Positions 34,337-34,410 of a stretch of DNA of 64,000 bases are shown one piece after another. Origin of the DNA: Escherichia coli. Lineage in GTDB: Bacteria > Pseudomonadota > Gammaproteobacteria > Enterobacterales > Enterobacteriaceae. Within the stretch, counting starts at the first letter, position 1. Each line of letters starts with the position of its first letter. The stretch lies in assembly GCF_003334355.1 (NCBI RefSeq), contig NZ_QOWP01000010.1; one strand, written 5' to 3'. The notes under the pieces are model-generated. The model saw only the letters and a program-made list of their open reading frames with translations, did no database searches and had not been told where the DNA came from. The translations under genes and the position numbers were made by a program.

Positions 34337-34374
34337 GTTCTCTGTAAGCCTTATTTTATTGAAGCACGCAGGAT

Positions 34375-34392
34375 AGCTAACACGTGTACGCT
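34375..34392 (-). promoter_or_regulatory. FabR operator palindrome in the fabA promoter
   Basis: agctaacacgtgtacgct (inverted repeat around cacgtg) about 40 bp upstream of the fabA start. Confidence 0.55.
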
Positions 34393-34393
34393 G

Positions 34394-34410
34394 AACAAGT
34401 CCGATCAGTT
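34394..34410 (-). promoter_or_regulatory. FadR binding site of the fabA promoter
   Basis: minus-strand AACTGATCGGACTTGTT matches the FadR consensus (ANCTGGTCNGACCTGTT) and the published fabA site. Confidence 0.6.

What the first reader, a model, noticed from the sequence alone, without database searches (positions are those of the whole stretch)
34337..34410. Back-to-back FabR and FadR operators upstream of fabA
Reading the minus strand upstream of fabA gives a cacgtg-centred palindrome (FabR-type) directly abutting a 17-bp AACTGATCGGACTTGTT element matching the FadR consensus. This is a compact two-regulator switch for unsaturated fatty-acid synthesis, and the FadR site overlaps the end of the upstream ycbZ coding region.
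Basis: partly seen in the sequence, partly recalled or inferred. Interest (0 to 1): 0.2.

Follow-up and report, generated by a model that had tools for sequence, protein, structure and literature searches.

The report
Known fabA promoter: FadR and FabR sites

Summary
The window is E. coli chromosome. On the minus strand, ycbZ ends at TGA 34407-34405. The FadR 17-mer AACTGATCGGACTTGTT lies at 34410-34394. After one base (C, 34393) comes the FabR 18-mer AGCGTACACGTGTTAGCT at 34392-34375. The fabA ATG is at 34336. This stretch is identical to the published fabA gel-shift probe used to show FadR binding. A leave-one-out FabR matrix makes the site the clear best hit in 64 kb. The FadR site scores only moderately against fad-regulon repressor sites, so its identity to the published site and its conservation carry the argument. 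A scan anchored on fabA coding sequence (120 proteobacterial loci) found 14 loci carrying the composite. The FadR-FabR gap is exactly 1 nt in all 14, across Enterobacterales, Vibrio, Shewanella, Pseudoalteromonas, Colwellia, Aliidiomarina, Rheinheimera and Pasteurellaceae, while the flanks diverge. The geometry reads as -35 TTGTTC inside the FadR box, a 17-nt spacer filled by the FabR box, and -10 TATCCT. This agrees with the published statement that FadR overlaps -40 and FabR overlaps -10. The overlap with the ycbZ stop codon is real but lineage-specific. Verdict: already known, low interest.

The parts
34394..34410 (-). FadR operator, AACTGATCGGACTTGTT (17 bp). It overlaps the last sense codon and the stop codon of ycbZ. 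Its 3' TTGTT forms most of the inferred -35 element.
   Evidence: for the sequence. It is identical to the published fabA probe (PMC4259882; PMC4537474). Mean conservation is 1.58 bits per column against about 0.5 in the flanks. It is the rank-1 FadR-matrix hit in the whole locus in 12 of the 13 first-pass orthologous loci; the exception is Rheinheimera at rank 11.
34393..34393 (-). Single-base spacer (C in E. coli, C or T elsewhere) between the FadR and FabR boxes.
   Evidence: The gap is exactly 1 nt in 13 loci, and also in the Rodentibacter locus read by eye.
34375..34392 (-). FabR operator, AGCGTACACGTGTTAGCT (18-bp imperfect palindrome centred on CACGTG). It fills the inferred promoter spacer, and its last T is the first base of the -10 hexamer.
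   Evidence: top hit in the window, 23-25 bits with leave-one-out matrices. Mean conservation 1.68 bits per column. PMC4273635 quotes the E. coli FabR motif as AGCGTACACGTGTTCGCT. PMC3462791 says FabR overlaps -10.
34393..34398 (-). Inferred -35 hexamer TTGTTC (3 of 6 matches to TTGACA; the TTG is invariant across species).
   Evidence: Inferred from the alignment. It lies 17 nt from the inferred -10 in all 14 aligned sequences. It was not detected by the stringent consensus scan, as expected for an activator-dependent promoter.
34370..34375 (-). Inferred -10 hexamer TATCCT (TAnnnT invariant across 14 sequences).
   Evidence: This is an inference; the transcription start was not mapped here.
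34337..34369 (-). Promoter-proximal region and 5' leader of fabA, including a Shine-Dalgarno-like AAGG. Poorly conserved outside close relatives.
   Evidence: 0.51 bits per column.
33818..34336 (-). fabA coding sequence (172 aa plus stop), encoding 3-hydroxydecanoyl-ACP dehydratase/isomerase.
   Evidence: RefSeq annotation in 5426 of 5426 genomes.
34405..36165 (-). ycbZ (Lon-like AAA ATPase) coding sequence. Its last 6 nt (AAC TGA) lie inside the FadR box.
34594..34608 (-). Published CpxR box GTAGAagaagGCAAA (-272 to -258 from the fabA ATG), inside ycbZ. It is a third, distal input to fabA.
   Evidence: Table 1 of PMC7083825. The sequence and coordinates were verified in the window.

Best explanation
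This is the native fabA promoter of E. coli, a composite cis-regulatory module.

FadR (GntR family) binds the 17-bp box centred about 40 nt upstream of the transcription start. The box overlaps a weak -35 (TTGTTC). FadR activates transcription, and long-chain acyl-CoA releases it, which lowers fabA expression.

FabR (TetR family) binds the 18-bp palindrome one base downstream. That palindrome occupies the whole 17-nt spacer and touches the -10 (TATCCT), so FabR represses by occluding RNA polymerase. Its repression is tuned by unsaturated acyl thioesters.

Together the two sites set how much unsaturated fatty acid the cell makes. The same module, 34 of 42 bases identical, drives fabB.

Shown here: sequence identity with the published probe, matrix ranks, cross-species conservation, invariant spacing, and the -35/spacer/-10 geometry. 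Taken from the literature: protein binding, activation versus repression, and ligand responses. Inferred: the exact hexamers and the steric occlusion mechanism.
For: - The window is E. coli, and fabA and ycbZ are annotated at this site in 5426 of 5426 complete genomes.
- The 111 nt spanning the promoter are at least 99% identical in all 5426 genomes. For the surrounding 1.2 kb, 1626 genomes fall in the 95-99% band.
- The published fabA probe equals window 34419-34364 (minus strand) exactly.
- FabR leave-one-out matrix: the site is the top hit in 64 kb at 23-25 bits; the next hit is 13 bits.
- FadR matrix including the fabB site: top hit at 18.2 bits.
- Scan anchored on fabA coding sequence: the composite has a gap of exactly 1 nt in 14 of 14 loci that carry it, and in the 13 first-pass loci the FabR box ends 34-41 nt before the ATG.
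- Conservation is 1.58 and 1.68 bits per column in the two boxes against about 0.5 in the flanks, and TTG...17 nt...TAnnnT is invariant.
- The fabB sister module lies 36 nt upstream of fabB.
Against: - With a matrix built only from five fad-regulon repressor sites, the FadR box scores 10.7 bits and ranks about 3rd-4th in the window, below a coding-region site in elfG. A matrix scan alone would therefore not single it out.
- The 17-mers in that matrix were aligned by me on the CTGGT core, because the papers' bold marking is lost in plain text.
- The stringent sigma-70 consensus scan finds no promoter here, so the -35/-10 assignment is inferred from conservation and geometry.
- The primary footprinting and promoter-mapping papers (Henry & Cronan 1992; Zhang et al. 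2002; Feng & Cronan 2009 and 2011; Zhu et al. 2009; McCue et al. 2001) are not in the held library. Footprint boundaries could not be compared base by base.
Confidence: 0.97

Rival explanations
1. The two motifs are chance matches in a short intergenic region and have no regulatory role.
For: A consensus match at up to 2 mismatches is expected about 1.1 times per window. 18-mers with 7 of 9 palindromic pairs are as common as in shuffled sequence, 100 against about 85. The fad-only FadR matrix gives only a mid-ranking score.
Against: The stretch is identical to the published, experimentally bound probe. The FabR box is the unique top hit. Both boxes and their 1-nt spacing are conserved in 14 loci from distant genera while the flanks diverge. 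A loose composite pattern occurs exactly once in the window.
Confidence: 0.01
2. The palindrome just after the ycbZ stop codon acts at the RNA level, either as a ycbZ transcription terminator or as a structured fabA leader element, and not as a DNA operator.
For: It lies immediately downstream of the ycbZ stop codon and is self-complementary.
Against: The fold is no more stable than shuffles: -9.4 kcal/mol, z = +0.45, and 128 of 200 shuffles fold at least as well. No T-run follows it, and no terminator-like site is called there. No Rfam match falls in the promoter even at E up to 1. Across species the sequence itself is conserved, and arm positions differ between species without any check for compensating changes; the same module occurs upstream of fabB, where no gene ends.
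Confidence: 0.01
3. The module is real, but the overlap of the FadR box with the end of ycbZ is itself functional, for example by coupling ycbZ translation or read-through transcription to FadR occupancy.
For: The TGA stop lies within the conserved CTGATC core in Escherichia, Citrobacter and Yersinia (stop at -71 in each), and one Shewanella locus has an upstream open frame whose TAG stop (-73) overlaps the box start. Upstream transcription starts inside ycbZ are reported (S3 at -203, PMC7083825).
Against: In Photorhabdus, Providencia and Vibrio the upstream ORF ends 16-23 nt before that position. Pseudoalteromonas, Colwellia, Aliidiomarina and Rheinheimera show no long same-strand ORF ending within 200 nt, yet they keep the module. 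The overlap therefore looks like local intergenic compaction.
Confidence: 0.05

Closest known systems
E. coli K-12 fabA promoter (FadR activator site at about -40; FabR repressor site overlapping -10)
   Same: It is the same locus. The published 56-nt fabA probe is identical to window 34419-34364 (minus strand). The flanking genes (ycbZ, rmf) are the same, and the published CpxR box sits at -272 to -258 as reported.
   Different: No difference was found in the promoter. Over the surrounding 1.2 kb the window matches the closest listed genome at 99.9% identity.
E. coli fabB promoter (FadR plus FabR composite)
   Same: Same architecture: GGCTGATCGGACTTGTT, then C, then GGCGTACAAGTGTACGCT, then TATTGT. 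It is 34 of 42 bases identical to the fabA module, with the same 1-nt gap, and lies 36 nt before the fabB CDS.
   Different: It is at another chromosomal locus, in a divergent intergenic region with mnmC and with no upstream gene overlap. The palindrome centre is CAAGTG instead of CACGTG. PMC4804515 reports stronger FabR binding at fabB than at fabA.
Shewanella oneidensis fabA promoter (FadR and FabR sites, PMC4537474, PMC4273635)
   Same: Same composite and spacing: AGCTGATCGGAGTTGTT, then T, then AGCTTACACGTGTTCGCT. The same sequences were recovered independently in my scan (L066, L102).
   Different: Different flanks and a different -10 (TAATCT). According to PMC4537474, Shewanella fabB lacks a functional FadR site.
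Pseudomonas fabAB upstream region (DesT/FabR-like palindrome)
   Same: A FabR-family palindrome of the type AGTGAACAAGTGTACATT lies upstream of fabA (L014, L043, L045, L096).
   Different: It lies about 131-138 nt upstream. There is no adjacent FadR box. A separate 30-bp activator element lies downstream of it, and no GntR-type FadR is involved (PMC3462791).

Membership tests
FadR (GntR-family) operator | 17-bp site matching the FadR recognition sequence (consensus recalled from memory as ANCTGGTCNGACNTNTT) | tested here: met
   One mismatch to the consensus. 18.2 bits and rank 1 with a 6-site matrix that includes fabB, but only 10.7 bits and rank about 3-4 with 5 fad-regulon sites.
FadR (GntR-family) operator | Sequence shown experimentally to bind FadR | tested here: met
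   Window 34419-34364 (minus strand) equals the fabA-F probe that shifts with wild-type FadR in PMC4259882 and PMC4537474. Binding itself comes from the literature and was not measured here.
FadR (GntR-family) operator | Position compatible with activation (about -40, overlapping -35) and not with repression | tested here: inconclusive
   The geometry inferred from conservation puts the box centre about 39-40 nt upstream of an inferred start near 34363. PMC3462791 states that FadR overlaps -40. The transcription start was not mapped here, and the primary paper is not held.
FadR (GntR-family) operator | Conserved upstream of orthologous fabA genes | tested here: met
   14 loci across Enterobacterales, Vibrio, Shewanella, Pseudoalteromonas, Colwellia, Aliidiomarina, Rheinheimera and Pasteurellaceae. 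Absent in the alpha, beta and Pseudomonas loci. Whether each genome encodes FadR was not checked.
FabR (TetR-family) operator | 18-bp imperfect palindrome of the type AGCGTACANGTGTNCGCT | tested here: met
   Exact 18-mer at 34392-34375. Rank 1 in the window with matrices that exclude it. PMC4273635 quotes the E. coli motif.
FabR (TetR-family) operator | Located immediately downstream of the FadR site and overlapping the core promoter (-10) | tested here: met
   A 1-nt gap from the FadR box. The palindrome spans the inferred 17-nt spacer and shares its last T with TATCCT. PMC3462791 agrees.
FabR (TetR-family) operator | Same motif upstream of the other regulon member, fabB | tested here: met
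   The fabB probe maps 36 nt upstream of fabB in 5426 of 5426 genomes.
FabR (TetR-family) operator | FabR protein binds and represses; the response depends on unsaturated acyl thioesters | not testable with these tools
   Literature only: PMC4804515 (ChIP-qPCR and transcriptomics in Salmonella) and PMC4537474 (fabR deletion raises a fabA-lacZ fusion).

The most novel reading that the evidence does not exclude
The FadR-FabR gap is exactly 1 nt in all 14 loci that carry the composite, spanning several gammaproteobacterial orders. That is tighter than two independent operators would need. It could reflect an obligate physical interplay between the two proteins on adjacent DNA faces, either direct contact or mutually exclusive binding, so that the pair works as a single three-state switch. 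[quoted passage not shown] Any novelty would lie only in showing a conserved protein-protein or steric coupling.
Probability: 0.15. Interest if true: 0.3.

Novelty: already known. Interest (0 to 1): 0.05.

Why it matters
It matters only as a check on the scan. The first-stage reader correctly recognised, from raw sequence, one of the classic examples of dual activator/repressor control in bacterial lipid metabolism. The cross-species comparison adds a tidy illustration: an invariant 1-nt gap, a -35 embedded in the activator site, and a repressor site filling the spacer. It does not open any new question.

Tried and rejected
- **Primary papers.** I tried to read Feng & Cronan 2009 (PMC2785586) and 2011 (PMC4072462), Zhu et al. 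2009 (PMC2787350), McCue et al. 2001 (PMC30389) and Campbell & Cronan 2001 (PMC99677). None is held. Footprint boundaries therefore rest on secondary statements in open-access papers and on probe sequences.
- **Sigma-70 consensus scan.** It found no promoter in 33700-34700. That fits a weak, activator-dependent promoter but does not help locate it.
- **RNA readings.** Rejected: the fold has z = +0.45, Rfam gives only sub-threshold hits on the fabA/rmf terminator, and no terminator is called at the palindrome.
- **Palindromicity as evidence.** Rejected: it is at chance level.
- **The elfG site.** The fad-only FadR matrix preferred a site at 20305-20321. It lies inside the elfG coding sequence, in a region absent or divergent in many E. 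coli genomes. I judged it a chance match.
- **Rodentibacter.** My first automated 'FabR' hit (at -167) is a terminator-like hairpin of the upstream gene. The true composite is at -114.

Full report
**What is in the sequence.** On the minus strand the region reads:

...CCG AAC TGA TCGGACTTGTT C AGCGTACACGTGTTAGCT ATCCTGCGTGCTTCAATAAAATAAGGCTTACAGAGAAC ATG GTA GAT AAA...

- The 586-codon ORF 36165-34405 ends with AAC TGA at 34410-34405.
- The 17-mer AACTGATCGGACTTGTT is at 34410-34394.
- One base (C, 34393) follows it.
- The 18-mer AGCGTACACGTGTTAGCT, with 7 of 9 self-complementary pairs and centred on CACGTG, is at 34392-34375.
- The next ORF's ATG is at 34336-34334.

The finding's coordinates, 34337-34410, therefore run from the first base of the FadR box to the last base before the start codon. 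The only adjustment is that a single base separates the two boxes.

**Where it comes from.** A 1.2-kb query around the site matches all 5426 complete E. coli genomes, with fabA, ycbZ and rmf annotated under the match. RefSeq annotation shows ompA, matP, ycbZ, fabA, rmf, pqiC and pqiB in that order, with a 68-nt ycbZ-fabA gap, exactly as in the window. The 111 nt spanning the promoter are at least 99% identical in all 5426 genomes. For the surrounding 1.2 kb, 1626 genomes fall in the 95-99% band.

**Is it more than chance?** The motif matches alone are not strong evidence.
- The FadR consensus I recalled (ANCTGGTCNGACNTNTT) matches with 1 mismatch, but at up to 2 mismatches 1.1 chance hits are expected per window.
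- 18-mers this palindromic are as frequent as in shuffled sequence, 100 against about 85.

I built it from experimentally used probes in PMC4259882 and left the fabA site out.
- The FabR site is the unambiguous best hit in 64 kb at 23-25 bits; the next hit is 13 bits.
- The FadR site is the best hit when the fabB site is in the matrix (18.2 bits).
- It scores only 10.7 bits, rank about 3-4, with five fad-regulon repressor sites. The fabA and fabB boxes share CTGATC where the repressor sites have CTGGT.

**Comparison with published work.** The fabA-F probe used for FadR gel shifts is TTTATTCCGAACTGATCGGACTTGTTCAGCGTACACGTGTTAGCTATCCTGCGTGC (PMC4259882; PMC4537474). It is identical to window 34419-34364 on the minus strand.
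- PMC4537474 marks putative FadR sites and predicted FabR palindromes in its probes. It also shows that fadR deletion lowers, and fabR deletion raises, a fabA-lacZ fusion.
- PMC7083825 describes the fabA promoter with a FadR box, a FabR box, two starts (S1 FadR-activated, S2 FabR-repressed), a third acid-induced start 203 nt upstream of the ATG, and a CpxR box GTAGAagaagGCAAA at -272 to -258. I found that box at 34608-34594, at exactly the stated distance.
- PMC3462791 states that in E. coli FabR binds at a site overlapping -10 and FadR at a site overlapping -40.
- PMC4804515 confirms FabR binding and repression of fabA in vivo in Salmonella.

The primary footprint papers are not in the held library.

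**Conservation.** To avoid selecting on the operators, I scanned one-genome-per-species contigs with a degenerate pattern for the FabA active-site peptide [12 protein letters not shown] (120 loci across alpha-, beta- and gamma-proteobacteria). For each locus I scored the 250 nt upstream of fabA.
- 13 loci carry both boxes: Escherichia albertii, Citrobacter, Yersinia, Photorhabdus, Providencia, Vibrio, two Shewanella, two Pseudoalteromonas, Colwellia, Aliidiomarina and Rheinheimera.
- In every one the gap is exactly 1 nt, and the FabR box ends 34-41 nt before the ATG.
- In each, the FabR site is the top hit of the whole locus.
- A Pasteurellaceae locus (Rodentibacter) has the same composite with the same 1-nt gap, but about 114 nt upstream.
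- Pseudomonas loci have only a distal FabR/DesT-like palindrome about 131-138 nt upstream, as published.
- The alpha and beta loci show neither box.
- The reduced-genome symbionts (a Pantoea symbiont, Candidatus Lightella), an Orbaceae locus and a Psychromonas locus lack the composite. Candidatus Photodesmus keeps a decayed relic.

In the alignment, invariant columns are confined almost entirely to 34408-34370. Information content is 1.58 bits per column in the FadR box and 1.68 in the FabR box, against 0.54 and 0.51 in the flanks.

**How it works.** The alignment exposes the promoter geometry.
- TTGTT(C/T) at 34398-34393 is the 3' end of the FadR box plus the spacer base.
- Exactly 17 nt follow. 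These are the FabR palindrome minus its last T.
- TAnnnT at 34375-34370 (TATCCT in E. coli) comes next.

I read these as a weak -35, the spacer and a weak -10. This would put the start near 34363 and the FadR box centre near -40, matching the published description.

From established knowledge of the two regulators, FadR at -40 recruits or stabilises RNA polymerase and is released by long-chain acyl-CoA. FabR lying across the spacer and -10 excludes polymerase. The hexamer assignment and the steric mechanism are inferences. Binding and the direction of regulation come from the literature.

The same module drives fabB. The published fabB probe maps 36 nt upstream of fabB in all 5426 genomes and is 34 of 42 bases identical to the fabA module.

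**The ycbZ overlap.** The overlap is real in E. coli. In Escherichia, Citrobacter and Yersinia the stop TGA lies within the CTGATC core (stop at -71 in all three). In Photorhabdus, Providencia and Vibrio the upstream gene ends 16-23 nt earlier. In several Alteromonadales-type lineages no long same-strand ORF ends within 200 nt. The overlap is therefore lineage-specific compaction and not part of the switch.

**Rivals.**
- An RNA hairpin or terminator reading fails. The fold has z = +0.45, no terminator-like site is called at the palindrome, and no Rfam family matches in the promoter.
- Chance is excluded by the conservation and by identity to the published site.

**Verdict.** The element is already known in detail, so interest is low. 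The only mildly suggestive point is the invariant 1-nt spacing across orders. Fixed promoter geometry probably explains it, though it could also reflect functional coupling between FadR and FabR.

Noticed in passing
window 34594-34608 (minus strand), inside ycbZ: The published CpxR box GTAGAagaagGCAAA, at -272 to -258 from the fabA ATG, is present exactly as reported in PMC7083825. The acid-induced start S3 (203 nt upstream of the ATG) would fall near 34539. fabA regulation therefore extends well into the ycbZ coding region, beyond the finding's coordinates.
   Followed up: partly
window 20305-20321 (plus strand): GTCTGGTACGATCAATT scores higher (18.6 bits) than the fabA site with a FadR matrix built from fad-regulon repressor sites. 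It lies inside the elfG fimbrial coding sequence, a region found in only 4035 of 5426 E. coli genomes and often only 90-95% identical. It is probably a chance match.
   Followed up: partly
window 25609-25626 (plus strand), between the ORFs at 24357-25466 (minus) and 25710-27818 (plus): CACGTACTTGTGTACGCT has a right half identical to the fabB FabR site, is 14 of 18 identical overall, and lies 84 nt upstream of the downstream ORF's ATG. Its score (about 13 bits, z about 4.7) is what the best chance hit in 128,000 positions would give. Conservation was not checked.
   Followed up: partly
window 33766-33790: A strong GC-rich hairpin (11 pairs, 7 of them G-C) with T-runs on both strands lies between the convergent fabA and rmf genes. 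It looks like a shared bidirectional intrinsic terminator. The sub-threshold Rfam hits (Phe_leader, rnk_pseudo, RsmY) all fall on this hairpin.
   Followed up: partly
L027 (Rodentibacter rarus), -114 to -79 and -167 to -150 relative to the fabA ATG: Pasteurellaceae keep the FadR-1 nt-FabR composite (CACTGCTCTGACTAGTT C AGCTAACAGGTGTTTTCT), but about 75 nt further from the start codon than in the other lineages. A perfect palindrome at -167 that mimics a FabR site is probably the upstream gene's terminator hairpin.
   Followed up: partly
L084 (Candidatus Photodesmus blepharus), about -75 to -38 relative to the fabA ATG; also L069, L033, L100 and L049: The reduced-genome Vibrionaceae symbiont keeps a decayed relic of the composite (ACTGATTAAAGTTGTT T AAGGTATACCTCTTTAAACT). 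A Pantoea symbiont, Candidatus Lightella, an Orbaceae locus and a Psychromonas locus show no composite. This suggests the switch has been lost repeatedly, notably in host-restricted lineages.
   Followed up: no
window 34405-34410 versus L104, L086, L065, L072 and L066: The ycbZ stop codon sits inside the FadR box core (CTGATC) in Escherichia, Citrobacter and Yersinia. In one Shewanella locus an upstream open frame ends with a TAG that overlaps the start of the box. In Photorhabdus, Providencia and Vibrio the upstream gene ends 16-23 nt earlier. The overlap is lineage-specific.
   Followed up: yes
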